In this document: piece by piece, positions 45,199 to 63,124 of the stretch
How positions within the stretch are numbered: the stretch's first letter is position 1
Layout of the letters: each line of letters starts with the position of its first letter
NCBI GenBank assembly: GCA_965226055.1
Contig: CBDDCA010000006.1
Span: forward strand, 160,001 to 224,000
Direction: 5' to 3'
Origin: Spirochaetia bacterium
GTDB lineage: Bacteria > Spirochaetota > Spirochaetia > WTKD01 > G963693115
DNA: 64,000 nt
Notes under the pieces: generated by a model
Told to the model about the DNA's origin: nothing
The model's database searches: none
Seen by the model: the letters and a program-made list of their open reading frames with translations, nothing else
Translations under genes and position numbers: made by a program

Positions 45199-45590
45199 TA
45201 AAAAGAATACCTAACAATGCCATCCAGCATAGTACTGCAGGCCCCTATTCGCCTGTGTTAGAAGTAGCGTTTGATACATTAGTATTGATATCAGGACAAG
45301 CCCCCATAGATATGGATGGCACTGTTGTAGGAGCTAGCATAGAAGAACAAACAAGGTTTACTATGGATAACTGCATAAAACAACTCAAAAATGCTCAGTG
45401 TACATTAGACAATGTATTTAAGGTAAACGTGTATCTTACAGATCTTGATCTATGGCCACGTTTTAATGAAGTATACAAAACATACTTCTCTCTTCCATAC
45501 CCCTGTCGTACGGCAGTGCAAGTAGGCTTACTCTACACATTCTTAGTAGAAATAGAAATGTGGGCAGCAAAGAACAATACCAGCACATAA
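45195..45590 (+). CDS. RidA/YjgF family enamine deaminase
   Basis: GPYS, SGQ.P, FNEVY..YF..P.P.R, VEIE. Confidence 0.9.
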   Translation: MIKRIPNNAIQHSTAGPYSPVLEVAFDTLVLISGQAPIDMDGTVVGASIEEQTRFTMDNCIKQLKNAQCTLDNVFKVNVYLTDLDLWPRFNEVYKTYFSLPYPCRTAVQVGLLYTFLVEIEMWAAKNNTST

Positions 45591-46476: not shown

Positions 46477-47557
46477 CACGAGTTCAAGGATTAAATGCGA
46501 CAAAGGAGCAAAAAAAGTAAGAAAAAATAAAAAAAGGAGACACTCTATAATTGTATAAACGAAACAAATTAGGAGGTCTCCTTTATGAGTATACCAAAAA
46601 ACTCATTTCGTCATCTGACAGACAAAGATCGTACTATTATCGCTACGCTCCGTCATGCAAAGTACAGTATCAATGCTATAGCCAAACGCCTCAGTGTCCA
46701 TCGCAGCACTGTCTATCGTGAAATACAACGCAATGGAGGCAAACATGTCTATAATGAAGTCATTGCTCACAGACAGGCAAGAAAACGATGGGATAAGAGC
46801 CATAAAAAACTCTCTATTCCTTCTCATACTATTCGTACCTATATCGTTTTTCACCTTATATTCGATGGCTGGTCGCCTGAACAAATAGCAGGAAGGCTCA
46901 GTATTGATATGCCTCAGTATACTATCAGTCATGAGACAATATATCACTTTATTTATCGTTTTGCTCCTCATTTGACACAGTATCTGCGAAAACAGCACCA
47001 AACACGCAAAAAAAGAAGAGTATCTCGTTCTTTTTCTGTTTCTCGTATCCCTCATCGTGTCTCAGTACACGAACGAGGCGATGTTTCTAATGAATATGGC
47101 CACTGGGAAGTAGATCTTGTTGGCTCTTCTTCAAAAGCTACTGTGCTTGCTTTAGTGGAAAAACATACCCGTTATGTTCTTTTTCATAAGATACCTGACA
47201 AAACTGCTCATACCGTACAGTATGGCATGCTCTTTGCTCTAAGGAACATACCACGCCATTTATGTAACAGTTTCACTTATGATAATGGGAGTGAATTTAT
47301 GCTCCATACTGAAATAAATACACGCCTGAATGCTCGTTCTTATTTTTGTACTCCTTACTGTGCTTGGGAAAAAGGATTAGTCGAACATTCTATTGGATTA
47401 TTACGTCAGTACTTTCCTAAGAAGACTTTGTTTCATAGAGTCAAGCAAAGTGATATACTACAAGTACAAACGCTTATCAATCATAGACCACGAAAATGTC
47501 TTCATTTTTTGACCCCTGCTGAAGCCTTTTCTGTCGCATTTAGTCCTTGAATCCGCA
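46477..47557 (+). mobile_element. IS30-family insertion sequence with 3-bp target duplication (ACA)
   Basis: imperfect terminal inverted repeats (cacgagttcaaggattaaatgcgaca / tgtcgcatttagtccttgaatccgca); ACA at 46474-46476 and 47558-47560. Confidence 0.9.
46585..47550 (+). CDS. IS30 family transposase
   Basis: HTH (IA..L..H.STVYREI.RN), WSPEQIAG, GHWEVD, TYDNGSEF, WEKG.VE, IN.RPRK.L. Confidence 0.95.
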   Translation: MSIPKNSFRHLTDKDRTIIATLRHAKYSINAIAKRLSVHRSTVYREIQRNGGKHVYNEVIAHRQARKRWDKSHKKLSIPSHTIRTYIVFHLIFDGWSPEQIAGRLSIDMPQYTISHETIYHFIYRFAPHLTQYLRKQHQTRKKRRVSRSFSVSRIPHRVSVHERGDVSNEYGHWEVDLVGSSSKATVLALVEKHTRYVLFHKIPDKTAHTVQYGMLFALRNIPRHLCNSFTYDNGSEFMLHTEINTRLNARSYFCTPYCAWEKGLVEHSIGLLRQYFPKKTLFHRVKQSDILQVQTLINHRPRKCLHFLTPAEAFSVAFSP

Positions 47558-49613
47558 ACATAGCATATCTAAAATTTGATATTTTTTTAAAAATAACATG
47601 ATCAAAATCAGCATCTTGTTTAAATTTTGACTTTCTAAAAATAGCATTTTCTGCAAAAGAAACACACCGAAAATATACTTTTTCTTTAAAAGTAGCTGCA
47701 GAAAAATCAACAAATCCTTTAAAGGATACCTTTTTATCCCAATTTAAACCAAATTTAGTTTCTTTTTCAAATATAGCTTTACGAAAAACTACCTCTACAA
47801 ATAATTCAACAGCACAAAAATCTACTTCTTTCTTAAAATTAACTTCACTAAAGTCTACTTTTTTCTCAAAAGTAGCTCCATTAAAATTCACTTCCTCTTC
47901 AAATTTAGCACTACAAAATTTTGCTTCCTCCCCAAATTTAGCACTACTAAAATCTGCTTTCTCCCCAAAGGTAGTATCACTAAATTTTGCTTCCTTTTTA
48001 AATGTAATATTCCAAAAATTTGCTTTCTCTCCAAAGGTAGTACTACTAAAATCTGCTTCCTTTCCAAATTTAACTTCCCAAAAATTTGCTTCCTTAAAAT
48101 TAGCATTATTAAAACTTACTTTCTTTTTAAATCTAGCAGCTCTAAAATCTGTTTCGTCTCCAAAGGTAACATCACTAAAATCTGTTTCATCTCCAAAGGT
48201 AACATCACTAAAATCTGCTCTCTCCCCAAAGGTAGTATCACTAAATTTTGCTTCCTTTCCAAATCTAGCATTACTAAAATCTGCTTCCTCTCCAAATTCA
48301 GCACTACTAAAATCTACTTCCTCTCCAAAGGTAACACTCCAAAACCTTGCTTCCTTTTCAAATCTAGCATTACTAAAATCTGCTTCCTCTCCAAAGGTAA
48401 CACTCCAAAACCTTGCTTCCTTTTCAAATCTAGCATTACTAAAATCTGCTTCCTCTCCAAAGGTAACACCCCAAAACTTTGCTTCCTTTTCAAATCTAGC
48501 ATTACTAAAATCTGCTTCCTCTCCAAATTCAGCACTACTAAAATCTGCTTCCTCTCCAAAGGTAACACCCCAAAACTTTGCTTCCTTTTCAAATCTAGCA
48601 TTACTAAAATCTGCTTCCTCTCCAAATTCAGCACTACTAAAATCTACTTCCTCTCCAAAGGTAACACTCCAAAACTTTGTTTCCTTTTTAAACTCAGCAC
48701 TACTAAAATCTGCTTCCTCTCCAAATTCAGCACTACTAAAATCTACTTCCTCTCCAAAGGTAACACTCCAAAACTTTGTTTCCTTTTTAAACTCAGCACT
48801 ACTAAAATCTGCTTCCTCTCCAAATTCAGCACTACTAAAATCTACTTCCTCTCCAAAGGTAACACTCCAAAACTTTGTTTCCTTTTTAAACTCAGCACTA
48901 CTAAAATCTGCTTCCTCTCCAAATTCAGCACTACTAAAATCTACTTCCTCTCCAAAGGTAACACTCCAAAACTTTGTTTCCTTTTTAAACTCAGCACTAC
49001 TAAAATCTGCTTCCTCTCCAAATTCAGCACTACTAAAATCTGCTTCCTCTCCAAAGGTAACACCCCAAAACTTTGCTTCCTTTTCAAATCTAGCATTACT
49101 AAAATCTGCTTCCTCTCCAAATTCAGCACTACTAAAATCTACTTCCTCTCCAAAGGTAACACCCCAAAACTTTGCTTCCTTTTCAAATCTAGCATTACTA
49201 AAATCTGCTTCCTCTCCAAAGGTAACACTCCAAAACCTTGCTTCCTTTTCAAATCTAGCATTACTAAAATCTGCTTCCTCTCCAAAGGTAACACTCCAAA
49301 ACTTTGCTTCCTTTTCAAACTCAGCACTACTAAAATTTACTTCCTTTTCAAATCTAGGACTACTAAAATCTGCTTCTCCTAAAAAATCACAATATGAGAA
49401 ATTATATATTTTTTCTTCTTTCTTATATAATTCACATAGTTCCGTAATGGCATTTGTATGTATATTATTGAGTACTTTTGCCCTTAGATCACCTTTTTCT
49501 GTTTCATACCACTGTATACATTTTCGAATATGCGGATATTTTTTCCATATATCCTTAAGTTCCTCGTTGTTGGATAGCTCTGCAAGTTCTTCTTGTGTTT
49601 TTTCTTCCATCAC
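47558..49613 (-). pseudogene. 5' part of the pentapeptide-repeat protein gene (IS30-interrupted)
   Basis: long run of 11-aa A.FxxAxFxxE repeats; the ORF-track C-terminus (LRIQG...) reads into the IS end. Confidence 0.85.
47800..49385 (-). repeat. 33-bp tandem coding repeats with near-identical 66/99-bp higher-order units
   Basis: units such as actaaaatctgcttcctctccaaattcagcact recur many times; boundaries approximate. Confidence 0.85.
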
Positions 49614-49644
49614 ATAATTATTATAGTTAATATATAAATATTTT

Positions 49645-49684
49645 GTTGTAGGTGAGCTGAAATTCTTTCTTTATATGATTTGAC
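49645..49684 (+). repeat. solitary degenerate CRISPR repeat A
   Basis: GTTGTAGGTGAGCTGAAATTCTTT[CTTT]ATATGATTTGAC: 30/36 identical to the array repeat (crRNA sense) plus a 4-bp insertion. Confidence 0.85.
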
Positions 49685-49745
49685 TTAACTTTAATATCAA
49701 GTAATGTAAAAAGCTACATAAAATATATATAGCACATAAGAATAT

Positions 49746-50228
49746 TTATGGATAATTACATATATCTATATTATGATATGTAAAAAAATCGGAAACAACA
49801 GTAGTAGAAGAATCATTATCAAAAAAATCATCCAATTCAGCTATTTTTTCATTATTCAACTTTTTAATCGCTTCTCGTTCATCAATTACAGCAAGTTTTT
49901 CCTCTAACCTTTGATTATGATAATCAGTTATATCATGTGTATCTTCTGCTTTCTTTCTCAAGTATTTAATCTCAATTTCCTCAAGTTTTTTATTTTTCTG
50001 TTCTCTTATTTTTCTTTGTTCAGAAAACCACAAAGAAAGAAAACTATAAAGGGCATCCTCTTTCAATTCCTCTAATGCGTAATTTTCAGTTTCTAAATAA
50101 TCATCTAATAAATATCGAACAGTAACACAATCTTGTAAATATCTATCAAAAAAAGATTCTTGAGATTCAATATTTTGCAAGAAAAATAATAATATACATA
50201 ATTGTATCAATGCAACTTTTCTTATCAT
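49746..50228 (-). CDS. hypothetical secreted helical protein
   Basis: signal-peptide-like N-terminus, charged coiled coil, AGGAG RBS. Confidence 0.6.
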   Translation of the reverse strand: MIRKVALIQLCILLFFLQNIESQESFFDRYLQDCVTVRYLLDDYLETENYALEELKEDALYSFLSLWFSEQRKIREQKNKKLEEIEIKYLRKKAEDTHDITDYHNQRLEEKLAVIDEREAIKKLNNEKIAELDDFFDNDSSTTVVSDFFTYHNIDICNYP

Positions 50229-50267
50229 ACCTACTCCTACTTTCTAATATAGCACTTATTGGTTTTT

Positions 50268-50303
50268 GTTATAGATAAACTGAAGTTCTTTATATGATAT
50301 AAT
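50268..50303 (+). repeat. solitary degenerate CRISPR repeat B (intact extended -10 TGATATAAT)
   Basis: GTTATAGATAAACTGAAGTTCTTTATATGATATAAT: 30/36 ungapped, all differences are G/A transitions. Confidence 0.9.
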
Positions 50304-50392
50304 CAATTATGATGACGAGTGAATAAAGCTACTTAAAATATTTACAGCTACTTTTTAGCAGTCATAATTAAATAGAGAACAGGAGAATTTTT

Positions 50393-51208
50393 ATGGACTA
50401 TACGCTATTTTTAAGTAAAAATGATACTGATCGTACATTACATGAGTTTGAGGGATTAGTGAAAGGTATTCTATTAGATAATGAACTAAATGAAAAGGAA
50501 GTGATAGCACTGAGAACATGGATTGATAACAATACACACTTTCTTTCTAAGAGTAATAAGGGTGTAACAAAAAACATTTTTACTGATTTATACTCCGCTT
50601 TTTATAGTAAATCAGGTGAGATTTTAATTGATGATATATTTATGTGTTTGCGTAATATCTCCTTCAAATCAATCTACTATAAAGAAGATACTACTAATAT
50701 ACAAATTTTAATAGGTTTGCTACGTGGTATTGTTGCCGATAGAGTTATAAATCAAAAAGAAATAAATAATCTTATTGTATGGTTAAAAGATCATTCTAGT
50801 TTACAGTCTATGTATCCATATAACCTATTAGTGAAGTTACTCCAAATAGGAACAGTTGATGAAGGAATTATTACAGATAATGAAGGTAAGTTGATGGAGC
50901 TTTGTATTGGTTTTGAAAGTGATTATGCTAATCAATCTGTTGTTAATAATGACATAGAAGTAATTTTTGCAAACAAACATTTTTGCTTTAGTGGCTATTC
51001 TGACAGTTATTCCAAGAAAGAAGTGCAAGAAAAAATAGAGAGTTTGAGTGGCTTTTATCATAAGAGTATGTGCAAAAAAGTTGACTATCTCATTTTAGGA
51101 GATAAAAAAAGTGAAGGCTGGGCTTATGGGAGCTATGGAAGAAAAGTAGAAAGCGCTCTAAATAATGGTATTCCCGTAGTTTCAGAATCTGTGTTATCAG
51201 TAACATAA
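50393..51208 (+). CDS. BRCT-domain protein with duplicated N-terminal helical (GI.AD..IN..E) domains
   Basis: two GI..D...N..E..L..W repeats; C-terminal FCFSG...G.....VDYLILG...W...SYGRKVE.A. Confidence 0.8.
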   Translation: MDYTLFLSKNDTDRTLHEFEGLVKGILLDNELNEKEVIALRTWIDNNTHFLSKSNKGVTKNIFTDLYSAFYSKSGEILIDDIFMCLRNISFKSIYYKEDTTNIQILIGLLRGIVADRVINQKEINNLIVWLKDHSSLQSMYPYNLLVKLLQIGTVDEGIITDNEGKLMELCIGFESDYANQSVVNNDIEVIFANKHFCFSGYSDSYSKKEVQEKIESLSGFYHKSMCKKVDYLILGDKKSEGWAYGSYGRKVESALNNGIPVVSESVLSVT

Positions 51209-51233
51209 GAATTACACACAAATATGTAATAAT

Positions 51234-51273
51234 ATTATAGATAAGCTAAAACTCTTTCTTTACATGATATAAT
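51234..51273 (+). repeat. solitary degenerate CRISPR repeat C
   Basis: ATTATAGATAAGCTAAAACTCTTT[CTTT]ACATGATATAAT: 28/36 plus the same CTTT insertion as copy A. Confidence 0.75.
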
Positions 51274-51313
51274 TGATTGTATCTCTAGTAATGGGTAAAT
51301 ACCCAATCAATAA

Positions 51314-52132
51314 TTAGAATTTTTCAACAAAATAAGACACCGTATTCTCTATTAAAGTTTGAGAGTGCGTCTTATCATCAGTTAATACATTGAATATATG
51401 ATCTGCATCTTCCATTTGTATAAATGATGTGCTTTTTGCTTTACTAGCATGAGATAAAAAGTCAGAGTCATCATACTGTAAAAAATCGTTAGTTCCACGA
51501 ATAACAAGTAAGTCGCCATCATATGTATCTATCACTGAGTATGAGTTCCATCCAATTAGTCCATATATAAATTGTCGCGATATTCTTTGTTCTGACCATG
51601 TAACCTCGTCATAAAAATCATTATTTGATAAAGAACGCAGATTAACATTGTCGTCATAATTTTTTGAAATTAGCCTAAATGAGCCATCATATGTTGGAGA
51701 CCAAAGTACAGTGACATCTACTTTTAGTGTAGTAATTACATAGGACGCTGTTAGTCCTCCTAAGGAAAATCCAATAACACCAATTTTCTTTGTTGGATAT
51801 TCTTTTTTTACTTTATTATATGCTTCCACTGACTCCTGTAGTCTACTTTCCATTGTTGATGTTACATAGTATTTGTTTCGTTCACCTTCGCCACTAAAAT
51901 TAAATCGATACGATGCTATATTTTTCTCCAAAAGTTCATTGGCAGTATCCTTAAATAAGTTTCCGACTTCATCATAATGACTTTGAAATCCATGAAGCAT
52001 AATTACAATAGAGTCAAATGTATCAGGACGAACAAACACTCCATTCTTATTGTCTTCTTTATTATCCTCTGTTCTTGAAGCACACGAAATTAACACTATG
52101 CTTATGCACATACATATAAATAATTTTTTCAT
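51314..52132 (-). CDS. alpha/beta hydrolase lipoprotein
   Basis: lipobox LISC, LHGF, GFSLGG nucleophile elbow, GTND, ADH. Confidence 0.88.
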   Translation of the reverse strand: MKKLFICMCISIVLISCASRTEDNKEDNKNGVFVRPDTFDSIVIMLHGFQSHYDEVGNLFKDTANELLEKNIASYRFNFSGEGERNKYYVTSTMESRLQESVEAYNKVKKEYPTKKIGVIGFSLGGLTASYVITTLKVDVTVLWSPTYDGSFRLISKNYDDNVNLRSLSNNDFYDEVTWSEQRISRQFIYGLIGWNSYSVIDTYDGDLLVIRGTNDFLQYDDSDFLSHASKAKSTSFIQMEDADHIFNVLTDDKTHSQTLIENTVSYFVEKF

Positions 52133-52346
52133 AAAAATCTCCTCATTGTAATAATGGTTTTGGCATTGATAAAAAAGAACAGATAAATAAAATGGACTAA
52201 ACCTGCCTCCTTTATTTAATTATACAAACTTTATACATGTTTCGCTTTGCTTCCTAGTATTTCTTTCTAAAGTATCTTTTTTTAGTTATCTATGCCCACC
52301 CCTAAAAATTACTACAGGAGTTTTATATTTGTACGATATAAAGTAT

Positions 52347-53291
52347 ATGCCTAATGTTGTCATAGAAGTACAGCATGATAACAATCATATCTCTCATAGA
52401 CGTGGTTTTTTAGAAATTGCTCATAATCGTACTACTGTAAAAGCAGTTGCTTATGATGAGATTGCTGCTCTTATTATGAGTTCTCATGCATCTACTATTT
52501 CCAATAGGGTATTACAGACATTAGCAGAACAAGGGATTCCTGTTATTATAGCAGGGAAAAATTTTCAACCGCTTTCTATAGCATTACCGCTCATTGGCAA
52601 TCATGATATTAGTACTCGCTTACGATATCAAATACAGGCAAGTGAACCTCTAAAGAAACAGGTATGGGCAAATATTGTACGTCAAAAGATTAAGAATCAG
52701 GCCACTGCACTTGCATACTTACAGAAAGATGAAGTTGCTATAAAACAAATACAAAGGTTAGCAACAAAGGTACTCAGTGGCGATACCACAAATATAGAGG
52801 CACAAGCTGCGAGAAAGTATTTTTCTGTATTATTTGGCAAAGAGTTTAAGCGAGATAGAAACTTGAATGATATTAATGGCATGCTTAATTATGGGTATAT
52901 GGTAATACGCAGTGCCGTAGCACGTGCTATCACAGGCTGTGGATTGCATCCAAGCTTAGGAATACACCATAAATCATGGACTGATACGATGCAGTTAGCA
53001 GATGATTTTATAGAGCCTTTTAGACCTATTATTGATGTATTGGTGGCATTGCTGATAAAAAAACATCATATAAAAGAGGTCACTCCTCAAGTGAAACGGG
53101 TACTATGTGCAAGCATAGATCTCCCAGTACAAGCCCCTCGAGGTGTTACTACAATTACTAAAAGCATACAGTATTTTTTACAATCTTTTGCTACAATACT
53201 GACACATAAAGGGGGTAGCCTTTTTAAGACAACATTTCCTTTACTAAAAGATATACAAAAATATGCCATACAGCAGTATACAGAGAAGTAG
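52347..53291 (+). CDS. cas1: type II CRISPR-associated endonuclease Cas1
   Basis: GD..N.EAQAAR.YF, N..LNYGY..IRS, LG.HH, LADDF.EPFRP; ATG 52347 chosen. Confidence 0.95.
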   Translation: MPNVVIEVQHDNNHISHRRGFLEIAHNRTTVKAVAYDEIAALIMSSHASTISNRVLQTLAEQGIPVIIAGKNFQPLSIALPLIGNHDISTRLRYQIQASEPLKKQVWANIVRQKIKNQATALAYLQKDEVAIKQIQRLATKVLSGDTTNIEAQAARKYFSVLFGKEFKRDRNLNDINGMLNYGYMVIRSAVARAITGCGLHPSLGIHHKSWTDTMQLADDFIEPFRPIIDVLVALLIKKHHIKEVTPQVKRVLCASIDLPVQAPRGVTTITKSIQYFLQSFATILTHKGGSLFKTTFPLLKDIQKYAIQQYTEK

Positions 53292-53292
53292 T

Positions 53293-53619
53293 ATGCACAG
53301 CAAATATAAGATTATGTGGATCTATGTAATGTTTGATTTACCAGTTATTACCAAAAAGGAAAAAAAAGAGGCTGCTCAGTTTAAGAATGCCTTACTTGAT
53401 TTAAGTTTTGAAATGGTGCAGTACTCAGTATATACACGCATATGTGGAAGTACAAGAAAAGTAGAAGTCGTGAGTAAGAAAATAGAGCATATATTTCCTC
53501 ATCAGGGGAAAGTAGATATTTTAGCAATAACAGATAAACAACATTCTGATATTATCTGTTTACGAGGAGAGGATAAAGAACCTCTACCACAAAAAAATCA
53601 GCAATTTTTACTATTTTAA
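53293..53619 (+). CDS. cas2: CRISPR-associated endonuclease Cas2
   Basis: MW..VMFDLPV, F.M.QYSVY.R, ITDKQ, QxLLF C-terminus typical of type II. Confidence 0.95.
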   Translation: MHSKYKIMWIYVMFDLPVITKKEKKEAAQFKNALLDLSFEMVQYSVYTRICGSTRKVEVVSKKIEHIFPHQGKVDILAITDKQHSDIICLRGEDKEPLPQKNQQFLLF

Positions 53620-53644
53620 GTGATTTTGTATTTTTGCTTTCTTT

Positions 53645-53684
53645 AAAAAAAGCCCCAAATTCCTATACAATAAGAATTTGGGGG
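53645..53684 (-). terminator. intrinsic terminator for minus-strand array transcripts
   Basis: stem ccccaaattc / gaatttgggg followed by a T7 run on the minus strand. Confidence 0.7.
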
Positions 53685-53689
53685 AAGAT

Positions 53690-56600
53690 ATTATATCATA
53701 TAAAGAATTTCAGCCCATCCACAACTGAATTATCATTTTCAAAAACTGTTTTTAAATTATATCATATAAAGAATTTCAGCCCATCCACAACAGCCAATGA
53801 TTACAGATAATAAAAGAAAAGATTATATCATATAAAGAATTTCAGCCCATCCACAACTAGAAGATACTAGTATTTCTTGTAGAAAATTATTATATCATAT
53901 AAAGAATTTCAGCCCATCCACAACTAAATCAACTCTAAATCATATACTCTATTAATTATATCATATAAAGAATTTCAGCCCATCCACAACAAAAGAAATA
54001 TTAAAAAAAAAACATAAAAAATTATATCATATAAAGAATTTCAGCCCATCCACAACAAAAATTTTACTAAAAGAAGTCATTGTAGGATTATATCATATAA
54101 AGAATTTCAGCCCATCCACAACAACCCATATGAACGGCTAGGAATTATACGCATTATATCATATAAAGAATTTCAGCCCATCCACAACCACTTTGGAGTC
54201 TCACCATCAGACGCACGAATTATATCATATAAAGAATTTCAGCCCATCCACAACAAATATGAAGTTTCATTGCAATACATAGAAATTATATCATATAAAG
54301 AATTTCAGCCCATCCACAACTGGCGACGATTACTTAGATGAAAAAGTCTATTATATCATATAAAGAATTTCAGCCCATCCACAACAATGATGGATTATAA
54401 ATATAGCATTGAAATTATATCATATAAAGAATTTCAGCCCATCCACAACCCCGAGAGTGTTCTTGTTAATAGCACGATGATTATATCATATAAAGAATTT
54501 CAGCCCATCCACAACAAAAAGCTAGTTCTTTTATTTCAGCGTTCGATTATATCATATAAAGAATTTCAGCCCATCCACAACATGGTTTCGAGCCTATAAC
54601 ATGATATACAAATTATATCATATAAAGAATTTCAGCCCATCCACAACACTTGCAGCAACGCAACGCGAAGTTAGACGATTATATCATATAAAGAATTTCA
54701 GCCCATCCACAACGATACGAAGATCAGACATACGAGGATGCACATTATATCATATAAAGAATTTCAGCCCATCCACAACTAACTAGTCCAGATCAAGTTA
54801 ATTTATCTAATTATATCATATAAAGAATTTCAGCCCATCCACAACTATAATGTGCATGGCATCGATCATGCCAGAATTATATCATATAAAGAATTTCAGC
54901 CCATCCACAACTGCCTCAAGTAGCAAACCCCGAAGGAGTGTATTATATCATATAAAGAATTTCAGCCCATCCACAACGAAGTAATCTTTATGCCAGTTAC
55001 GACGGAGATTATATCATATAAAGAATTTCAGCCCATCCACAACGTATAAAAGCAGCATTTAATAATCAATTTAATTATATCATATAAAGAATTTCAGCCC
55101 ATCCACAACTATAAGGCTAGTTGGTGACAGATTTAGGATATTATATCATATAAAGAATTTCAGCCCATCCACAACTACCAGGTATAGAAGGAAAATAATA
55201 TGGTCATTATATCATATAAAGAATTTCAGCCCATCCACAACAAAAGGCACAAGTGCCACAGTACTGAGCGAATTATATCATATAAAGAATTTCAGCCCAT
55301 CCACAACAAGAAAGCGTTCATTGTGTACTCTTCCGATATTATATCATATAAAGAATTTCAGCCCATCCACAACTATTCCCATTTATCGCCTTTTTTTACA
55401 ATCATTATATCATATAAAGAATTTCAGCCCATCCACAACTAAAAACGCGGGAGTTAACCCGTTAATGTTATTATATCATATAAAGAATTTCAGCCCATCC
55501 ACAACCTCCCGGCTTATGGCATACCACAATTATAATTATATCATATAAAGAATTTCAGCCCATCCACAACGACAGCAACAACAGACCGCCTACCTGTGAA
55601 TTATATCATATAAAGAATTTCAGCCCATCCACAACGTGCTTGACACATCAGATGAAGTGGAAGTAATTATATCATATAAAGAATTTCAGCCCATCCACAA
55701 CGTCAGCCGACAGCAATTACATCGGTAAATAATTATATCATATAAAGAATTTCAGCCCATCCACAACATATTTGATCAGTGGACACAATTTATTACAATT
55801 ATATCATATAAAGAATTTCAGCCCATCCACAACAAGGATAGACACATGTACGAAATGGAGCAAATTATATCATATAAAGAATTTCAGCCCATCCACAACT
55901 AGTAAGAACTCAGCCACTCGTAAAGCCAGATTATATCATATAAAGAATTTCAGCCCATCCACAACGAAAAAGTGCCAACTGATAAAGCATTAGATATTAT
56001 ATCATATAAAGAATTTCAGCCCATCCACAACGATCGCGGTTGGCTTAGAAAAACTAAAGAAATTATATCATATAAAGAATTTCAGCCCATCCACAACATA
56101 ACGAAAAGTTAGTTACAAAGAGATACGATTATATCATATAAAGAATTTCAGCCCATCCACAACAGAGTATATCGATTGCGATCATTCGGATCTATTATAT
56201 CATATAAAGAATTTCAGCCCATCCACAACTACAAAAGCAGATATTCAAGCGAGAAGACAATTATATCATATAAAGAATTTCAGCCCATCCACAACTGCGA
56301 TAGGGGAAGACCATACATCGTACGTATTATATCATATAAAGAATTTCAGCCCATCCACAACCATGATGGCAGGGGCTTTTGGCTTTGAGGGATTATATCA
56401 TATAAAGAATTTCAGCCCATCCACAACTACAAGATAGGCTAACGCTTTCTCTGTTTTATTATATCATATAAAGAATTTCAGCCCATCCACAACACAGGAG
56501 TTATTAAAGAGGCAGATCGCATTATTATATCATATAAAGAATTTCAGCCCATCCACAACAATTTTTGGCATATGGCGCGCACATTCAACATTATATCATA

Positions 56601-58735
56601 TAAAGAATTTCAGCCCATCCACAACACGTTATATCGAATACCTCAATGCCTCTTTATTATATCATATAAAGAATTTCAGCCCATCCACAACAACATTCCA
56701 ACCGCAGACAAACGAGCAGTAATTATATCATATAAAGAATTTCAGCCCATCCACAACTGGATAGCTGAAGTCCATATATGATATACTATTATATCATATA
56801 AAGAATTTCAGCCCATCCACAACATGTGGTTTCAGGGTAAGAAAATCAATCCAATTATATCATATAAAGAATTTCAGCCCATCCACAACACAACATGCAA
56901 AATTTGTACAAGCCCTAGCATTATATCATATAAAGAATTTCAGCCCATCCACAACATCTGAACAGCCAGTTATGAAGTCAGAACTATTATATCATATAAA
57001 GAATTTCAGCCCATCCACAACATTTTTGAGCAGTGGACGCAATTCATTACAATTATATCATATAAAGAATTTCAGCCCATCCACAACTATAGTTTGCAAC
57101 GGAAAGCAAGTACTAGAATTATATCATATAAAGAATTTCAGCCCATCCACAACCGTATCGGTATCTCTGTAGAAGTCATTAAAATTATATCATATAAAGA
57201 ATTTCAGCCCATCCACAACTAACATTGATTACGCACAGAAAAATTACATATTATATCATATAAAGAATTTCAGCCCATCCACAACAAGCTGTCCAATTTC
57301 TTCGTCAAACATGCCATTATATCATATAAAGAATTTCAGCCCATCCACAACCAAATTCTGAAGATTCTACAGGACTTCAGAATTATATCATATAAAGAAT
57401 TTCAGCCCATCCACAACCTAAGTTCATTATTTTTTATTGAATCATTTATTATATCATATAAAGAATTTCAGCCCATCCACAACAACTCATAGGAGAGGGC
57501 GATAATATTACAGATTATATCATATAAAGAATTTCAGCCCATCCACAACATTGGGACAAACCCATACCAGATATAAATATTATATCATATAAAGAATTTC
57601 AGCCCATCCACAACAAAGACATATTGTGGAATTATTTCGGCTTGATTATATCATATAAAGAATTTCAGCCCATCCACAACATGCCACAGGTGGCAAACCC
57701 TGAAGGAGTTATTATATCATATAAAGAATTTCAGCCCATCCACAACATTTTTTGTTTCGATATTATAGCTCCGTAAATTATATCATATAAAGAATTTCAG
57801 CCCATCCACAACCTGCTTACGGAGTACCAAAGTTATAGGAGTATTATATCATATAAAGAATTTCAGCCCATCCACAACCGCCTAATGTTTTCCCATATTT
57901 TATGGGTTATTATATCATATAAAGAATTTCAGCCCATCCACAACATTAAAAGTTATTTTATTATCTTGTATAGTATTATATCATATAAAGAATTTCAGCC
58001 CATCCACAACATAGTCCATGTAGGCAACAAAGTCAGAGCAATTATATCATATAAAGAATTTCAGCCCATCCACAACAGAGGCAATGGCAGACATATAAAA
58101 AGAGAATTATATCATATAAAGAATTTCAGCCCATCCACAACTAATATTTATTATTTTATTAAAGTCAGTGAATTATATCATATAAAGAATTTCAGCCCAT
58201 CCACAACATCACATGCAAAGTTTGTCCAAGCCCTCGCATTATATCATATAAAGAATTTCAGCCCATCCACAACTGGTTGGTTTCGCAAAACCAAGGAAGA
58301 TTAATTATATCATATAAAGAATTTCAGCCCATCCACAACAGGTATGCTTATACCTGTTGGAATCTGGGAATTATATCATATAAAGAATTTCAGCCCATCC
58401 ACAACTATAATCTTATTTATCATTGGAGCAATCCGATTATATCATATAAAGAATTTCAGCCCATCCACAACCAGCTTTCATACACACATACTTTGTACCT
58501 TATTATATCATATAAAGAATTTCAGCCCATCCACAACTAATACTAAACTTATTTGCTGCAAAGTCGTATTATATCATATAAAGAATTTCAGCCCATCCAC
58601 AACTACCATGTAATAGGTGTCGATTTTGCAGAAATTATATCATATAAAGAATTTCAGCCCATCCATAACTTAATGACTGCCAGAAATGACGAGATCGCAA
58701 TTATATCATATAAAGAATTTCAATCTATCCACAAC
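53690..58735 (-). CRISPR. type II-C CRISPR array, 77 repeats of 36 bp and 76 spacers of about 30 bp
   Basis: Repeat ATTATATCATATAAAGAATTTCAGCCCATCCACAAC (+), counted by eye; last two repeats near cas9 are degenerate; crRNA sense is the minus strand (tracr complementarity, TGATATAAT at repeat 3' end, terminator). Confidence 0.97.
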
Positions 58736-58740
58736 GACAA

Positions 58741-61700
58741 TTACTTTTTTGCAAAGGAAATTATGCCAGTAGGACTCATATGTACTTTTTGTAATTTATA
58801 CCCCTGTAATTTAGCGAGAGAAGTATATCGTTCCCTTACTCTTACTTTTTGATCATCTTTTTTTTCTTCTTTTATTTCTTTTGCACGTGCAGCATCATTG
58901 GCTTCATGCAACTCTGCAAGATCCAGATCTATACTCCCTGACATCTTACACACTCGATATAGCTTTCCTTCGGGAGCATGAGGAGGGTAGAGCATGACAG
59001 TATCATTATTGTGTAAGCGCATAAGCATTTTTTGAGTAGGGTATTTCTTTTTCCACTGAGGCACATAGTTTTTTTTATTTGCATGATATCTCGTTATCAT
59101 TTCTCCTTGCCATTTTCCTTCTTCATCTTCGTATATTTCATATGCCCAGTTTCCTGCTGAAATATACCCTTTATATGCTTTTCCTTGTTTGTCTTTTTGA
59201 ATGCCTATTACTGTCTCTTTTGTAATGATTTTTACTTTTCTTATCCCAGTTTCTTGAAAGCATTGCTCTAGGGCTTCTTTTATATTTCCATTATGCCTAT
59301 TACAATAATCTTGTAGCAATTTTCTTGTTTTAGGGCTTGCTATTTTCTTAATCATTGGTACAGTTAAATCCAAAATATTCTTGTGAATTCCCACATACCG
59401 AGCTTTCTTTGTATCCTGTGTACTCGTATCAGATCCTGGTACGCGGAAGCTATAGGCTTGCTCCTCAAGTAACTGCCCTGTCTTTCCTCTGTCACTTTTA
59501 TGTGATACTATTATTTTCTGCATACTCCGTTCAACATCTTCACGAAATCCTTCCCATGGAGCAGGAATAGCCTCTCTATGCTTTTGACTAAACAAATGTA
59601 TATCTGCATATTCTGCAGCACTTGCCCATTGCGATACTTTATTCAGTATTCCTCTCTCAATACATCCTACCACAACAGCATCCACTGCATGATGTCTATG
59701 ATCGTCTCTATTCTTTTTGCCATCATCCCCTAGCACTTTATTTAGTCCCCACATATGTCGTAACCAAGCACTGAGTTTTCCTGGTGAAACCCATATATCC
59801 ACAGGATGAGATTTTTCTTTCAAGCTCTCAAGATAATATTGAGCTACCTTTGCAAAATACTGAGATGAATGTAATTGATGTGCTAAAAATCCTTCTTCTT
59901 GTTCAAAACGTTTCATAGCATCACTTTTAAAACGCCAGCTTTTATTAGAAGGAAGCAGATTTGCATTGTTGTCTATGCTTTTCCATTTGTTAGTAGTTCC
60001 CCATGCTTCATGGGGAGTTTTGTTCATCTTTTCCTTATTTGCTCCTGATTTACAGAGTACTTTATTAGCAAAGCTATTATCAAGGGTACGAGAAAAAGGC
60101 AAAATATGATCGATATGCGTAGCATGAGAAAATACATCATCTTTTGTTATCTTCTCATTTGAATAAGGGCAACGTCTATCATTAGGATTATCTGATAATT
60201 CTTTCCATAATCTATATTTTTCTCTATCACTACGAGAAGGAGATACTATGCCATAGTCATCTTCTAATTCTTTGTTTATTTTTTCATTTTTCGCTTGGTT
60301 ATCTCTTAGTTTTTTATCATAATCACTTTTGGTTTGTTTTCCCATAGAAAAATCACGCAATAATTCTAGCACTATTTGTTGGGGCTTGTCATATCTGCGT
60401 ATAAGCTCATTTACTACTTTTTGTAGCTGATTAAGTCCTACATGTACGGTTGGATTTGTTATCTTACCATATTGAGCTTCCTGTCTTTTTCGTCCTTTTA
60501 TTTTCTCATCAATGTCTTTTGCTTCTTTCTTGCCTATGCAGTATCGAGAGAGTATTTCCCCATAGTATGGCAACACACTATATCCCTTAGCACGTGTTCC
60601 TCGATGATCTCCGTAGCCAGCTTGCTTTACTGCCTCATCATAGGTGATAATATCTTTTTGTAGACACGCTACTATCTTGGTGAGTGCTGTCTTTGATAAG
60701 TTACAGTACCCTTTTGGCAACTTCACAATCTTAGATATGCATTCATCTGCTGTTTCTTTGTCAAGATTCCACTCACTAACACACAATACTTCTCGTAATT
60801 TTTCATCCGAATTTTCAGTATCTAAAAGGAGTGCTATAAAATTATTTTTTCTCTCCATATCCCAGTCTTGCCATATTTTTTTCCCTATAATTTTTGATAC
60901 CACTGCAGTAGTTCCATTATGCTTAAAATTTTTAGTGTCTACTCGTTCAAAATTGATAGATACTGTCCCTTCTAAATGATACTCTTTCTTTATATAGGTA
61001 GAAACATCCTTTGGCTTAGCACTGCTTGATTTATTCTCCAGATAGTTTTTTAGCTTATCTCGTAATAGTATATCTACAGGAAACTCTTCTCTATTATGAA
61101 ATATGCGTATATTGTGTATATCTTGTAGTATTCTAAATTCTTGTGCAATAGGCATTGCCCATGCACAACGATGCTCATCTTCAAAAATACACAGGCCTGG
61201 TGTTTGAGGCTTTAGTTTACGCTGATAAAATATTACCTCTTTTATTTTCTCGTATGCTTCATTGGAGAACAACTGGTGGGTATGAGATAGCTCCTTTTGT
61301 TGCTTCCATATCGTATCAAATTCTTTCTCATACATCTCACGTGAAAAATACAGCTCATAGTCAGTTTTTCCGGGAGTTAGCGATTTTGCCCTCACTGCCT
61401 TTTTCTGCTTAAAGCGACTGTAGAGATATTCCCCTAATGTTCGCATATTATTTTTATGCAGCTCTTTTTCTAACTCTTTTATGACAGGCTTGATTTTCCC
61501 TGTTTCATCATCTCCATCAGATAGTCTATTACTCTTAAAGCCTCTCCGCTGATTTATATGAAATATCGCTCGCCCAAATTCATGTGCAGAAATAGCTTCA
61601 TCCAATGCCTTTGCTCGTAGCTCATAGGGGTTTTTCTGCTGTAGTGCAAGACGCTCCTCCTTATCTGCAGGGAAAAACCCAAAATGAGTGAGCTGAGAGA

Positions 61701-61920
61701 GAATATGCTCCCGTCTTTGTAAGTATCTGTCTCTCCGTCTTCTTGCTGAACGGGCAGTTTGCCGTTCCTGATTGAGTGGTGCATAGGTCTTATCTGCTCT
61801 GCTATTTGAAAAAATACGCACTCCTGTGCCTTTTAGAGCAACTGGCGATCCTTCTTGTACTTCAAGGACTGCCCATCCTATCGAATTAGTGCCTAGATCA
61901 AAACTAAAACGAATACTCAT
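58741..61920 (-). CDS. cas9: type II-C CRISPR effector Cas9 (about 1059 aa)
   Basis: RuvC-I FDLGTNSIGWA, Arg-rich bridge helix, HNH IDHILPFS...N...NKVL, RuvC-III HHAVDA; ATG 61920 with GGAGG RBS; no csn2 or cas4. Confidence 0.97.
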   Translation of the reverse strand: MSIRFSFDLGTNSIGWAVLEVQEGSPVALKGTGVRIFSNSRADKTYAPLNQERQTARSARRRRDRYLQRREHILSQLTHFGFFPADKEERLALQQKNPYELRAKALDEAISAHEFGRAIFHINQRRGFKSNRLSDGDDETGKIKPVIKELEKELHKNNMRTLGEYLYSRFKQKKAVRAKSLTPGKTDYELYFSREMYEKEFDTIWKQQKELSHTHQLFSNEAYEKIKEVIFYQRKLKPQTPGLCIFEDEHRCAWAMPIAQEFRILQDIHNIRIFHNREEFPVDILLRDKLKNYLENKSSSAKPKDVSTYIKKEYHLEGTVSINFERVDTKNFKHNGTTAVVSKIIGKKIWQDWDMERKNNFIALLLDTENSDEKLREVLCVSEWNLDKETADECISKIVKLPKGYCNLSKTALTKIVACLQKDIITYDEAVKQAGYGDHRGTRAKGYSVLPYYGEILSRYCIGKKEAKDIDEKIKGRKRQEAQYGKITNPTVHVGLNQLQKVVNELIRRYDKPQQIVLELLRDFSMGKQTKSDYDKKLRDNQAKNEKINKELEDDYGIVSPSRSDREKYRLWKELSDNPNDRRCPYSNEKITKDDVFSHATHIDHILPFSRTLDNSFANKVLCKSGANKEKMNKTPHEAWGTTNKWKSIDNNANLLPSNKSWRFKSDAMKRFEQEEGFLAHQLHSSQYFAKVAQYYLESLKEKSHPVDIWVSPGKLSAWLRHMWGLNKVLGDDGKKNRDDHRHHAVDAVVVGCIERGILNKVSQWASAAEYADIHLFSQKHREAIPAPWEGFREDVERSMQKIIVSHKSDRGKTGQLLEEQAYSFRVPGSDTSTQDTKKARYVGIHKNILDLTVPMIKKIASPKTRKLLQDYCNRHNGNIKEALEQCFQETGIRKVKIITKETVIGIQKDKQGKAYKGYISAGNWAYEIYEDEEGKWQGEMITRYHANKKNYVPQWKKKYPTQKMLMRLHNNDTVMLYPPHAPEGKLYRVCKMSGSIDLDLAELHEANDAARAKEIKEEKKDDQKVRVRERYTSLAKLQGYKLQKVHMSPTGIISFAKK

Positions 61921-61937
61921 AAATACCTCCAATGGAC

Positions 61938-61966
61938 TTGACATATATGTATATATCCTATATTAT
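61938..61966 (+). promoter_or_regulatory. sigma70 promoter for tracrRNA
   Basis: TTGACA-17 bp-TATTAT immediately upstream of the anti-repeat. Confidence 0.65.
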
Positions 61967-61987
61967 TTAAGTATAGGATTTAATTCT

Positions 61988-62082
61988 ATTATATCATATA
62001 AAGGATTTCAGCAAAAAATCCATTAACAAGTGCCTTCGGGTGCACTAATCAGCCCATCACTTCGGTGATGGGTTTTGTTTTT
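61988..62082 (+). ncRNA. tracrRNA
   Basis: anti-repeat ATTATATCATATAAAGGATTTCAGC (24/25 to the repeat), lower stem ATCCATTAAC, hairpin gtgc-ttcg-gcac, terminator cccatcac-ttcg-gtgatggg plus T-run. Confidence 0.9.
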
Positions 62083-63054
62083 CTAAGAGGAAGTGTTGTT
62101 TTTCATCTTTGCGATATGCTTTTGCATCTTTTCCTTTGAGAAGATCTCATCATATACAGAATGATAAATTTTTCCATTTTTATATGCATTTGATACATCT
62201 CCTATAAAAGAACTAAAGTCTTCATTCTTTAAACATAACTTATTCATTGTTTCCCAATCAAGACGATCCTTATTTCTTGCAGGAAACAATACTCTCGAAG
62301 CATCAATGTCTTCTATGCTAAGCTCTATTATGCCTATGCCAAAAAAATTACTTAAGCGTGATAATTCTCCATGCACATCTTCATCTTTTTTTATATTAGA
62401 GGCCACTAGATAGCCCTCATGAGCCCACGATGAATTAGAGAGAGCTTGAAAAAAACTTTCCCTATAATTACTTCTATCTATCTTTATTTTTAATTCAAAA
62501 GAGAATAACTGAAGAGCATTCATATCAGATAATGTATTAAACTCAAGTATAGTCTTATCCCAATATTCCAAAGGTAAATAAAAACCTACTATATCGGGGT
62601 GTAACCATTCACCTGGATCATTCTTTTTCGATTTCTCATGGAATATTGTTTTCGTATATACCTTTTTTCTTCTGTTAAATTTTTTATTGTTATAGACGAA
62701 ATAAGATAATAATGGGTGCAAATCACGTTCTGAATATGATGAAACACTACTACTCTCTTGCTTAGGAGTGGTATCTACACTGTTTATAGGCAATTCTTCA
62801 TCTGCGAATTTAAGCTCATGTTTCCTTGATTTTAGAAAAAATTTCTGAGGATTTTTTCCTATTGAAAAAAATTTTGAAGATGAAATCTTTACATTTGTAT
62901 ATAAATGTGCCCCTAACGTCGCATAAGGAGTTTTTCCTTCACTTGTAAGCTCCTTGTTTAATCCTAAATCTACTCCTTTGTCCCAAATTTCTTGACTACT
63001 CAGAGGAGCATTAGCTCCCTTCAGTACCTCTTCTGCAAAATCTAAATATGTCAT
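62083..63054 (-). CDS. HARE-HTH + restriction-endonuclease-like protein (HrgA/COG2958 family)
   Basis: N-terminal GKTP.ATLGA HTH; ERDLHPLL, WLHPDIVG, SFELK, FQA.SNSSWA.EGYLV. Confidence 0.8.
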   Translation of the reverse strand: MTYLDFAEEVLKGANAPLSSQEIWDKGVDLGLNKELTSEGKTPYATLGAHLYTNVKISSSKFFSIGKNPQKFFLKSRKHELKFADEELPINSVDTTPKQESSSVSSYSERDLHPLLSYFVYNNKKFNRRKKVYTKTIFHEKSKKNDPGEWLHPDIVGFYLPLEYWDKTILEFNTLSDMNALQLFSFELKIKIDRSNYRESFFQALSNSSWAHEGYLVASNIKKDEDVHGELSRLSNFFGIGIIELSIEDIDASRVLFPARNKDRLDWETMNKLCLKNEDFSSFIGDVSNAYKNGKIYHSVYDEIFSKEKMQKHIAKMKNNTSS

Positions 63055-63124
63055 TTATATACCACCTGTAGTAACAGTATACTATATCTTTTAGAATAGC
63101 GTTACTCTCAAGCTATTTTTACGT

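What the first reader, a model, noticed from the sequence alone, without database searches (positions are those of the whole stretch)
49645..51273. Whole genes bracketed by solitary CRISPR repeats upstream of cas1: a 'gene-sized spacer' array or Cas9-supervised cassettes
Seen: three co-oriented degenerate copies of this locus's 36-bp repeat sit in three consecutive intergenic gaps (A 49645-49684, 30/36; B 50268-50303, 30/36; C 51234-51273, 28/36; A and C share a CTTT insertion). They bracket a secreted 160-aa gene (A-B) and a BRCT gene (B-C), and flank the pentapeptide/TM gene and the hydrolase next to cas1. B and C keep the TGATATAAT extended -10. B points at the BRCT start 89 bp downstream and keeps the tracr upper-stem pairing. 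Established: II-C repeats act as promoters (Neisseria); degenerate-repeat RNAs guide repression (Francisella scaRNA, type I CreTA). Inference: either the repeats act as cassette junctions and promoters, so the BRCT mRNA is a giant pre-crRNA processed at C by tracrRNA/RNase III, or they yield scaRNA-like guides that let Cas9 regulate neighbouring accessory or defence genes.
Basis: partly seen in the sequence, partly recalled or inferred. Interest (0 to 1): 0.88.

Follow-up and report, generated by a model that had tools for sequence, protein, structure and literature searches.

The report
Decayed CRISPR repeats bracketing two optional genes
Three worn-down copies of this spirochaete's own CRISPR repeat sit between ordinary genes next to cas1, mark the exact ends of a two-gene block that some strains carry and others lack, and probably survive as promoters, not as RNA guides.

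Summary
A (49645-49684), B (50268-50303) and C (51234-51273) are degenerate copies of the locus's 36-nt type II-C repeat (30/36, 30/36, 28/36). A and B are the only non-array, non-tracr hits at edit distance 8 or less in the 2.25-Mb genome. C's best genome-wide match is B.

New facts:
- The copies are inverted relative to the 77-repeat array.
- The real tracrRNA lies upstream of cas9.
- A sister species keeps the same A-orf160-B-BRCT-C layout at about 95% identity.
- Contigs from two other runs join exactly from A to C and carry one repeat with neither gene.
- Both genes are 3-fold less diverged at synonymous sites than eight neighbouring genes.

The 5' (guide-handle) parts of the copies decay as a neutral model predicts. 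Only the TGnTATAAT extended -10 of B and C is spared (P about 0.03). No seed match of 11 nt or more to any cas-locus promoter was found, and C pairs poorly with the tracrRNA.

Best reading: these are relics or duplicates of one solitary repeat. They now serve as recombination end points of an optional 1.59-kb module and as promoters. They are not scaRNA-like guides and do not make a giant pre-crRNA. No RNA data exist. This is a new variant of the known standalone repeat-like elements. Interest is moderate.

The parts
49645..49684 (+). Copy A: degenerate repeat (30/36 plus a CTTT insertion). The -10 is lost (TGATTTGAC). Left end point of the optional module.
49746..50228 (-). orf160: 160-aa ORFan with a hydrophobic N-terminus. 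Found only in this genome and the sister species.
50268..50303 (+). Copy B: degenerate repeat (30/36, all 6 changes in positions 4-18). Perfect TGATATAAT, 89 nt upstream of the BRCT ATG.
50393..51208 (+). BRCT-domain protein of 271 aa: a helical N-domain of about 190 aa plus a C-terminal BRCT. It belongs to a widespread family, some members of which are fused to a DEDDh exonuclease.
51234..51273 (+). Copy C: degenerate repeat (28/36 plus the CTTT insertion). Perfect TGATATAAT pointing toward cas1-cas2 through the antisense of the hydrolase gene. Right end point of the optional module.
51314..52132 (-). Alpha/beta-hydrolase gene of 272 aa with a lipoprotein-like N-terminus (read by eye). Present in all four laid runs.
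47502..49613 (-). Pentapeptide-repeat protein gene. Its start lies 32 nt left of A.
52329..53291 (+). cas1
53263..53619 (+). cas2
53690..58735 (-). CRISPR array of 77 repeats and 76 spacers. crRNA sense is on the - strand. The leader lies at the cas2 end and the degenerate repeats at the cas9 end.
58741..61944 (-). cas9 (type II-C size, 1067-aa ORF). The likely true start is the ATG at 61920, behind a GGAGG.
61978..62085 (+). tracrRNA: anti-repeat, two GC-rich hairpins and a T-run. The reverse strand of its anti-repeat carries TGATATAAT facing cas9.

Best explanation
A, B and C are decayed copies of this type II-C locus's own repeat. They descend from one solitary repeat that lies upstream of cas1, in the orientation opposite to the array.

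Origin (inferred). That solitary repeat was probably left behind when the cas1-cas2-leader-array block became inverted relative to cas9-tracrRNA.

They are not guides (shown as far as sequence can). Their 5' guide-handle halves drift neutrally and no target exists in the locus.

Two properties remain.
1. They are direct repeats, so recombination can add or remove what lies between them. A and C are the exact ends of a 1.59-kb module (orf160, B and the BRCT gene) that is present in some strains and absent in others (shown). The module looks younger than its neighbours (shown). So it was probably gained or exchanged, and not simply lost (inferred).
2. The 3' end of the repeat is a perfect extended -10 promoter, as in Neisseria and Campylobacter II-C repeats. 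It is kept in B and C. B probably drives the BRCT gene. C, like the single copy in strains without the module, probably fires toward cas1-cas2 through the antisense of the hydrolase gene (inferred; no RNA data).
For: - Real copies, not chance.
- Inverted relative to the array, with the true tracrRNA elsewhere.
- Gene order. The same-family genome G005 has the standard order cas9-cas1-cas2 with a convergent array, a tracrRNA upstream of cas9, and no extra copies in the 18 kb examined. So the order here is derived.
- Sister species G001 keeps A-orf160-B-BRCT-C colinear at 95.5% identity over 4,374 aligned columns.
- Strain polymorphism. In 2 of 4 laid runs (X7, a 31-kb contig; X8), from two studies, contigs join 49679 to 51306 and 49645 to 51235. 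They carry one repeat and neither gene. The other 2 runs (X3, X5) carry the full module. A and C share too little exact sequence for a 31-mer assembly to collapse them (the last point is my reading).
- Synonymous differences: 12.5 of 248 sites in the module against 291.7 of 1,877 sites in eight neighbouring genes, Fisher P about 1e-6.
- Decay is neutral-like. In simulations, the fraction pairing at least as well as observed is 0.11-0.56 for antisense pairing and 0.23-0.87 for sense pairing.
- The -10 is spared. By my hand count there are about 17 substitution events in the B and C lineages. None hits the 8 specified positions of TGnTATAAT and one hits the free n. P = 0.03.
- The rival BRCT -10 is broken in G001.
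- The same motif faces cas9 in G000, G001 and G005.
- Repeat-borne promoters are documented for II-C systems (passages read in PMC5965381).
Against: - No transcript evidence of any kind. No RNA run is listed, so both promoter claims are inference.
- C points into the antisense of an 819-nt gene before reaching cas1. A promoter-like site also lies nearer to cas1 (52166-52193), although its -10 changes in G001.
- The P of 0.03 for the -10 rests on a hand count of events in related lineages and on an assumed mutation spectrum.
- Direction of the indel is unproven. The module is present in both species-level lineages, so simple parsimony favours loss in X7 and X8. One other small gene, 45195-45590, also has a low dS of 0.049. 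The intergenic stretch around B is more diverged (10 differences per 100 nt) than the flanking genes' dS, which does not fit a single recent transfer of the whole module.
- The inversion origin has no support from synteny. No flanking genes are shared with G005, and the hydrolase gene sits between C and cas1.
- On the - strand the copies would pair with crRNA repeats as strongly as the real tracrRNA does. An RNA role in that direction is therefore not excluded.
Confidence: 0.55

Rival explanations
1. Regulatory guides (scaRNA, tracr-L, crlRNA or 'CRISIS'-like). Transcripts containing A, B or C plus the adjacent pseudo-spacer load into Cas9 with the tracrRNA and repress nearby genes.
For: Standalone repeats next to cargo genes regulate those genes in type I-C systems (10.1101/2024.12.27.630466: abstract and sections 5 and 23 read). 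Mini-arrays other than the tracrRNA are reported in about 6% of type II loci (passages of 10.1101/2023.03.03.530964). B retains -29.6 kcal/mol of pairing with the tracrRNA, far beyond shuffles (minimum -15.7) and random genome 40-mers (minimum -23.4). The copies are conserved in position in the sister species.
Against: No 3'-anchored pseudo-spacer match of 11 nt or more exists in the cas locus. The best are a 9-mer at 52147 and a 10-mer at 50335, with 128 and 38 occurrences genome-wide. The lower-stem part of every copy is degraded. C pairs at -16.4 kcal/mol. Pairing energies are what neutral decay gives. The copies evolve at intergenic rates between species.
Confidence: 0.07
2. Gene-sized 'spacers'. 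Cas1-Cas2 (or another repeat-directed integrase) inserted long DNA at a solitary repeat and duplicated the repeat each time, in an integron- or casposon-like gene capture next to cas1.
For: The extra DNA relative to X7 and X8 is exactly one repeat plus one insert, 49645 to 51235. A and C share the CTTT insertion, as duplicates of one target would. The module is younger than its flanks. It lies directly upstream of cas1.
Against: Recombination between direct repeats gives the same product. The right flanks of A, B and C show no likeness to the conserved leader end (ATCTTCCCCC here, ACTTCCCCCC in G005) that anchors integration (my reading). B lies inside the insert and lacks CTTT. I know of no report of Cas1-Cas2 inserting kilobase DNA (recalled, not searched).
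Confidence: 0.07
3. Anti-repeat elements read on the - strand. rc(A) and rc(B) lie in the 5' regions of the pentapeptide gene and orf160, and rc(C) lies in the 3' region of the hydrolase gene. These mRNAs would pair with the abundant crRNA repeats and be cut by RNase III, or would sponge crRNAs.
For: Duplex energies with the crRNA repeat are -36.4, -40.9 and -38.6 kcal/mol for rc(A), rc(B) and rc(C). The real tracrRNA anti-repeat gives -40.8, and the 0.1% tail of random genome 40-mers is -26.4. No terminator-like site separates the hydrolase stop from rc(C).
Against: Strong antisense pairing is the expected by-product of GC-to-AT decay of a G-rich repeat, because G-to-A changes become G-U pairs. 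The simulated means are -37.0, -39.9 and -32.8. None of the three has tracr-like hairpins and a T-run behind it. No RNA data exist.
Confidence: 0.08
4. Pure debris. These are remains of an old array with no present function. The -10 conservation is luck, and the A-to-C difference is a one-off deletion.
For: Neutral-like decay. Intergenic-rate divergence. A has already lost its -10. The arrays themselves have turned over completely, with 0 spacers shared between the 76 of G000 and the 192 of G001.
Against: The -10 is spared in B and C in two species (P about 0.03) and in the single copy of X7. The only other BRCT -10 candidate is broken in G001. An old array does not explain how whole genes came to lie between the repeats.
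Confidence: 0.2

Closest known systems
[quoted passage not shown] 2023, 10.1101/2023.03.03.530964; passages read)
   Same: Degenerate copies of the locus's own repeat lie outside the array, in intergenic gaps of the cas neighbourhood. They are conserved in a close relative and lie next to non-cas 'cargo' genes.
   Different: There, the adjacent spacer is partly complementary to a cas or cargo promoter and the RNA acts as a guide. Here no target was found and the guide-handle half is decayed. The copies bracket whole genes and are inverted relative to the array. That paper's supplementary tables of type II loci could not be seen and may hold similar cases.
Repeat-embedded promoters of type II-C arrays (N. 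meningitidis, C. jejuni; passages of review PMC5965381 read)
   Same: The repeat ends in a perfect extended -10 (TGATATAAT), and B and C keep it. A relative with a different repeat (G005) also ends its repeat in TGATATAAT.
   Different: There the promoters make crRNAs inside an array. Here a copy would drive a protein-coding gene (BRCT), and perhaps cas1-cas2. Start sites are unmapped.
CRISPR-supervised immune systems and crlRNAs, type I-C (Shu et al. 2024, 10.1101/2024.12.27.630466; abstract and sections 5 and 23 read); scaRNA and tracr-L (known to me from the passages)
   Same: Non-cas genes lie inside or beside a cas locus, each followed by a solitary repeat unit.
   Different: The defining match between the repeat unit and a promoter with a PAM was looked for and not found. 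The system is type II, not type I. The BRCT family is widespread and in general not CRISPR-linked.
Integron gene cassettes with attC sites (recalled)
   Same: Genes are separated by related short repeats. A presence/absence difference ends exactly at those repeats. A promoter lies at the junction.
   Different: No integrase of that kind is present. Only one polymorphism has been seen. The repeats are CRISPR-derived. Ordinary homologous recombination suffices to explain what is seen.
Spacer loss by recombination between CRISPR repeats (PMC8047081; search listing and start of abstract only)
   Same: Loss or gain of the DNA between two direct repeat copies leaves one copy behind.
   Different: The unit lost or gained is 1.59 kb with two genes, not a 30-nt spacer. 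The two repeat copies are only 75% alike today.

Membership tests
Standalone CRISPR repeat-like element of a type II-C locus | Similarity to the locus's own repeat beyond chance, outside the array | tested here: met
   A and B are 2 of only 3 non-array sites at edit 8 or less in the genome. C's best genome-wide hit is B.
Standalone CRISPR repeat-like element of a type II-C locus | Conserved in position in closely related loci | tested here: met
   All three are present and colinear in G001. One copy is present in X7 and X8.
Regulatory mini-array / scaRNA / crlRNA | Spacer-like segment partly complementary (seed of about 11 nt or more) to a promoter in or near the locus | tested here: not met
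   No 3'-anchored match of 11 nt or more in C6:200000-224000. The PAM is unknown, so it was not used.
Regulatory mini-array / scaRNA / crlRNA | Guide handle kept able to pair with the tracrRNA | tested here: inconclusive
   B -29.6, A -23.5 and C -16.4 kcal/mol against -40.8 for the repeat. All lie within neutral-decay expectation.
Regulatory mini-array / scaRNA / crlRNA | Expressed, processed and bound by the effector | not testable with these tools
   No RNA run is listed for this DNA.
Repeat-embedded II-C promoter | Extended -10 (TGnTATAAT) at the 3' end of the repeat | tested here: met
   B and C have TGATATAAT. G001 has TGATATAAT in B and TGTTATAAT in C. A has lost it.
Repeat-embedded II-C promoter | Transcription start a few nt downstream | not testable with these tools
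   No RNA data.
tracrRNA (read on the - strand) | Anti-repeat able to pair with the crRNA repeat | tested here: met
   -36.4 to -40.9 kcal/mol, but this is expected from neutral decay.
tracrRNA (read on the - strand) | Nexus and terminator hairpins with a T-run behind the anti-repeat | tested here: not met
   The only terminator-like site in 47000-53800 is at 53683-53653. The real tracrRNA, with two hairpins, is at 61978-62085.
Integron-like cassette array | Cassette turnover that ends at the repeats | tested here: met
   One A-to-C presence/absence difference in 2 of 4 runs.
Integron-like cassette array | Dedicated site-specific recombinase beside the array | tested here: not met
   Pfam on 10 neighbouring ORFs found only Cas1 and an IS30-like transposase (rve, HTH_38) at 46585-47550. 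That stretch has no match in the 32 kb of G001 compared.
Active CRISPR array (site of spacer integration) | Leader-anchoring sequence next to the repeat | tested here: not met
   The leader end ATCTTCCCCC (G005: ACTTCCCCCC) is absent from the flanks of A, B and C (compared by eye).

The most novel reading that the evidence does not exclude
CRISPR repeats used as portable cassette junctions. A solitary repeat next to cas1 captures gene-sized DNA by repeat-directed recombination, possibly through Cas1-Cas2 itself. Each capture duplicates the repeat and places the new gene under a repeat-borne promoter. The result would be an integron-like gene-capture platform built from CRISPR parts, with the cassettes exchanged between lineages.
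Probability: 0.08. Interest if true: 0.85.

Novelty: new variant of a known kind. Interest (0 to 1): 0.5.

Why it matters
Standalone repeats beside cas genes are currently read mostly as regulatory guides. This locus is a checked counter-example: the guide part is decaying, while the promoter part and the recombination property remain. It shows that II-C repeats, which carry their own promoter, can be recycled as promoters for ordinary genes. It also shows that they can act as the break points of an optional gene module next to the adaptation genes. If the gain of the module turned out to be repeat-directed, that would link CRISPR adaptation machinery to gene capture. On a practical level, annotators should not call every solitary repeat a crRNA-like regulator without finding a target.

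Tried and rejected
- Chance. Rejected.
- tracrRNA relic at A, B or C. The true tracrRNA is at 61978-62085, and no hairpin or T-run tails lie behind A, B or C on the - strand.
- Rfam. 0 matches at E up to 1 in 46000-64000.
- Selection for RNA pairing. 19 of the 20 substitutions in the copies are transitions, and the antisense RNAs pair as well as the tracrRNA. A neutral GC-to-AT decay simulation reproduces the energies, so I dropped this as evidence.
- orf160 as the antisense of a decayed BRCT duplicate. No residual similarity was found (tblastn best E 0.85; the family-profile hits on the + strand frames are not significant).
- Homology beyond the repeat. Only a 24-nt block in the right flanks of A and B stands out (3 of 800 background alignments score as high). 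The A-C and B-C flanks and all the left flanks are at background level. An apparent likeness of the A flank to the BRCT start is not separable from generic RBS-ATG context.
- Spacers against the module. None of the 76 G000 spacers or the 192 G001 spacers hits window 49645-51273.
- Synteny test of the inversion idea. No flanking genes are shared with G005.
- More relatives. With the hydrolase protein, genome contigs returned only G001's record and metagenome contigs only one distant 49% fragment. The order holds 9 genomes. The 60%-identical BRCT homologue P0002 was not found in the 401 class genomes searched, so its context is unknown.
- Function of the cassette genes. There are no matches at E of 0.01 or better in PADLOC. 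orf160 has no family and no Atlas look-alike above 0.78. The N-domain of the BRCT protein has no PDB match at E of 0.001 or better.
- Expression. No RNA holder is listed.
- Supplementary tables of the two preprints could not be seen.
Full report
**Locus**

The window holds a type II-C CRISPR-Cas locus of a spirochaete. The sister genome's record is titled 'MAG: Spirochaetia bacterium'. The layout is:
- cas1 at 52329-53291 (+) and cas2 at 53263-53619 (+).
- A 70-nt leader.
- An array of 77 repeats and 76 spacers at 53690-58735.
- cas9 at 58741-61944 (-), whose stop codon lies 5 nt from the last repeat.

In crRNA sense the repeat reads GTTGTGG...TGATATAAT on the - strand. The slightly degenerate repeats (1 and 3 mismatches) lie at the cas9 end, so the leader is at the cas2 end.

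The tracrRNA is at about 61978-62085 (+), divergent from cas9. It has an anti-repeat that pairs with the repeat at -40.8 kcal/mol with an internal bulge, then two GC-rich hairpins and a T-run. Read on the other strand, its anti-repeat places TGATATAAT about 60 nt upstream of the probable cas9 start. The same holds in G001 and G005.

**The observation**

A genome-wide edit-distance scan (2.25 Mb, both strands) found only three non-array sites at 8 or less: B (6), A (7) and the tracr anti-repeat (8). There are then 2 sites at 9, 13 at 10 and 106 at 11. C scores 12, so against the consensus alone it is not significant.

Other evidence shows that C is a genuine copy:
- With C as the query, its single best hit in the genome is B (edit 9), and A is one of only four non-array hits at edit 10.
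- A and C share a CTTT tandem duplication.
- B and C share G-to-A changes at repeat positions 4 and 10. All three share changes at positions 6 and 11 (and my reading).
- A contig of run X8 joins 49645 to 51235.

So the three copies descend from a common, already degenerate ancestor. They all lie on the + strand and are therefore inverted relative to the array.

**Relatives**

G001 is a sister species, with about 95% identity in the flanking DNA. It has the same A-orf160-B-BRCT-C-hydrolase-cas1-cas2 order at 95.5% identity. Its array has 193 repeats of identical sequence, and it shares none of its spacers with G000. An IS-containing 2.4-kb insert lies between its array and cas9.

G005 is in the same family, with a Cas9 44-47% identical. 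It has the standard order cas9-cas1-cas2 with a convergent array and a tracrRNA upstream of cas9. No extra repeat copy was found in the 18 kb examined. Relative to that order, the cas1-cas2-leader-array block is inverted in G000 and G001. A repeat left at the old distal end of the array would have the orientation seen for A, B and C, and would point into cas1. This origin is an inference. G005's flanks share no genes with this window, and the hydrolase gene now lies between C and cas1.

**Strain polymorphism**

Contigs of four public runs were laid on 49380-53689.
- X3 is identical to the window, and X5 is G001-like. Both carry the whole module.
- X7 has a 31-kb contig that is about 2.3% diverged across hydrolase-cas2. 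Its contig joins 49679 to 51306, with 36 C-flank-like letters between.
- X8 joins 49645 to 51235.
- X7 and X8 come from two different studies.

X7 and X8 therefore have one repeat copy, with an intact TGATATAAT, between the pentapeptide gene and the hydrolase gene. They lack orf160, B and the BRCT gene. The difference is exactly one repeat plus one insert (1,589 nt). A and C share no exact stretch near 31 nt, so assembly collapse is unlikely (my reading).

**Age of the module**

Between G000 and G001, dS is 0.047 for orf160 and 0.055 for the BRCT gene. Eight neighbouring genes range from 0.049 to 0.326. Summed, there are 12.5 synonymous differences in 248 sites in the module against 291.7 in 1,877 sites in the neighbours (Fisher P about 1e-6). 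dN/dS is 0.11-0.13, so both are real genes under constraint.

The divergence profile shows two quiet gene bodies (about 1.4-1.8%) separated by spikes at B (10 differences per 100 nt) and C (15 per 100 nt). This favours a more recent common origin of the genes, by gain or exchange, over old vertical descent followed by loss in X7 and X8. It is not clean, for three reasons:
- One other small gene is equally similar.
- The stretch around B is more diverged than a single recent transfer predicts.
- Plain parsimony favours loss.

**Guides or not**

- Sense RNAs would pair with the tracr anti-repeat at -29.6 (B), -23.5 (A) and -16.4 (C) kcal/mol. The repeat gives -40.8, and the 1% tail of random genome 40-mers is -16.7.
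- No pseudo-spacer has a 3'-anchored match of 11 nt or more in the cas locus.
- Antisense RNAs would pair with the crRNA repeat at -36 to -41 kcal/mol, as well as the tracrRNA does. This is because the changes are mostly G-to-A and so become G-U pairs.
- A neutral decay simulation with GC-to-AT and transition bias reproduces all six energies. The fraction of simulations at least as stable is 0.11-0.87.

So there is no sign of selection for pairing in either direction.

**Promoter**

All 14 substitutions in B and C (relative to the array consensus) lie in repeat positions 1-26. Across both species I count about 17 events in the B and C lineages. None falls on the eight specified positions of TGnTATAAT, and one falls on the free position (P = 0.03 under the biased model and 0.014 under a uniform model). 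The event count is my own, made.

The only other sigma-70-like site before the BRCT gene (TTTACA-16-CATAAT) reads CGTAAT in G001. Repeat-borne promoters are established for the II-C arrays of N. meningitidis and C. jejuni (passages of PMC5965381). B is therefore the likeliest BRCT promoter.

C faces the antisense of the hydrolase gene and then cas1-cas2. No terminator-like site lies between. A has lost its -10. None of this could be tested, because no RNA run is listed.

**The genes**

- The BRCT protein (AF2 model, mean pLDDT 89.9) has a C-terminal BRCT fold like those of RFC p140 and LigA, and a helical N-domain without a PDB match.
- Its family is large: 723 clusters at E of 1e-10 or better. 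Of 10 members scanned with Pfam, 5 carry an N-terminal DEDDh exonuclease domain.
- Distant homologues (28-33% identity) occur in 7 of the 399 other class genomes searched, and G000 and G001 match at 60-61% (9 of 401 in all). G016 has a homologue but gave no Cas9 match.
- orf160 is an ORFan.
- Neither gene matches a defence family at E of 0.01 or better.

**Comparison and verdict**

The nearest known kind is the standalone repeat-like element of CRISPR-cas loci.

What is unusual here is that the copies bracket whole genes, delimit a strain-variable module, are inverted relative to the array, and keep only their promoter part. I rate it a new variant of a known kind, with interest 0.5. The integron-like or Cas1-mediated capture reading is not excluded, and I put it at about 0.08.

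Noticed in passing
window 61978-62085 (+), with cas9 upstream region 61945-62010: The tracrRNA is divergent from cas9. The reverse strand of its anti-repeat carries the repeat's TGATATAAT about 60 nt before the probable cas9 start (ATG at 61920, behind a GGAGG). One sequence may therefore serve as both anti-repeat and cas9 promoter. G001 and G005 have the same arrangement.
   Followed up: partly
window 52329-61944, compared with L025 (G005): The cas1-cas2-leader-array block is inverted relative to cas9 when compared with the standard order in G005. The last array repeat ends 5 nt from the cas9 stop, so cas9 transcripts would run straight into the array.
   Followed up: partly
window 55242-55271 (spacer); genome C4:929-958: One spacer matches the organism's own genome 30/30, inside an ORF of at least 1,293 aa at a contig start. 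It also matches about 20 further copies with 1-3 mismatches. A G001 spacer likewise hits a multi-copy sequence. The PAM is unknown.
   Followed up: partly
window 52182-52242: A core of about 61 nt between the hydrolase gene and cas1 recurs 5 more times in this genome, and also in G001. In G001 one copy lies right after the cas9 stop, beside an IS with a 359-aa transposase. It looks like an IS or MITE end.
   Followed up: partly
window 46585-47550: This IS30-like transposase gene (HTH_38, rve) has no match in the 32 kb of G001 compared, which covers the corresponding region. The region left of A is rearranged between the two species.
   Followed up: no
window 47891-49376: The pentapeptide-repeat gene contains about 15 tandem copies of a 99-nt unit. 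This part aligns poorly with G001 (64-72% identity). X7 and X8 carry 81 other letters at 49518-49528.
   Followed up: no
window 53690-58735 compared with L023/L024: The arrays of the two species have identical repeats but share 0 spacers (76 against 192). G001's array is 12.7 kb and has 8 duplicated spacers.
   Followed up: partly
window 50393-50965 (N-domain of the BRCT protein): The helical domain of about 190 aa, with three G-x(3)-G-I-x(2)-D...E...L...W-like repeats, is widespread, sometimes follows a DEDDh exonuclease, and has no solved-structure match. It is an uncharacterised DNA-metabolism family.
   Followed up: partly
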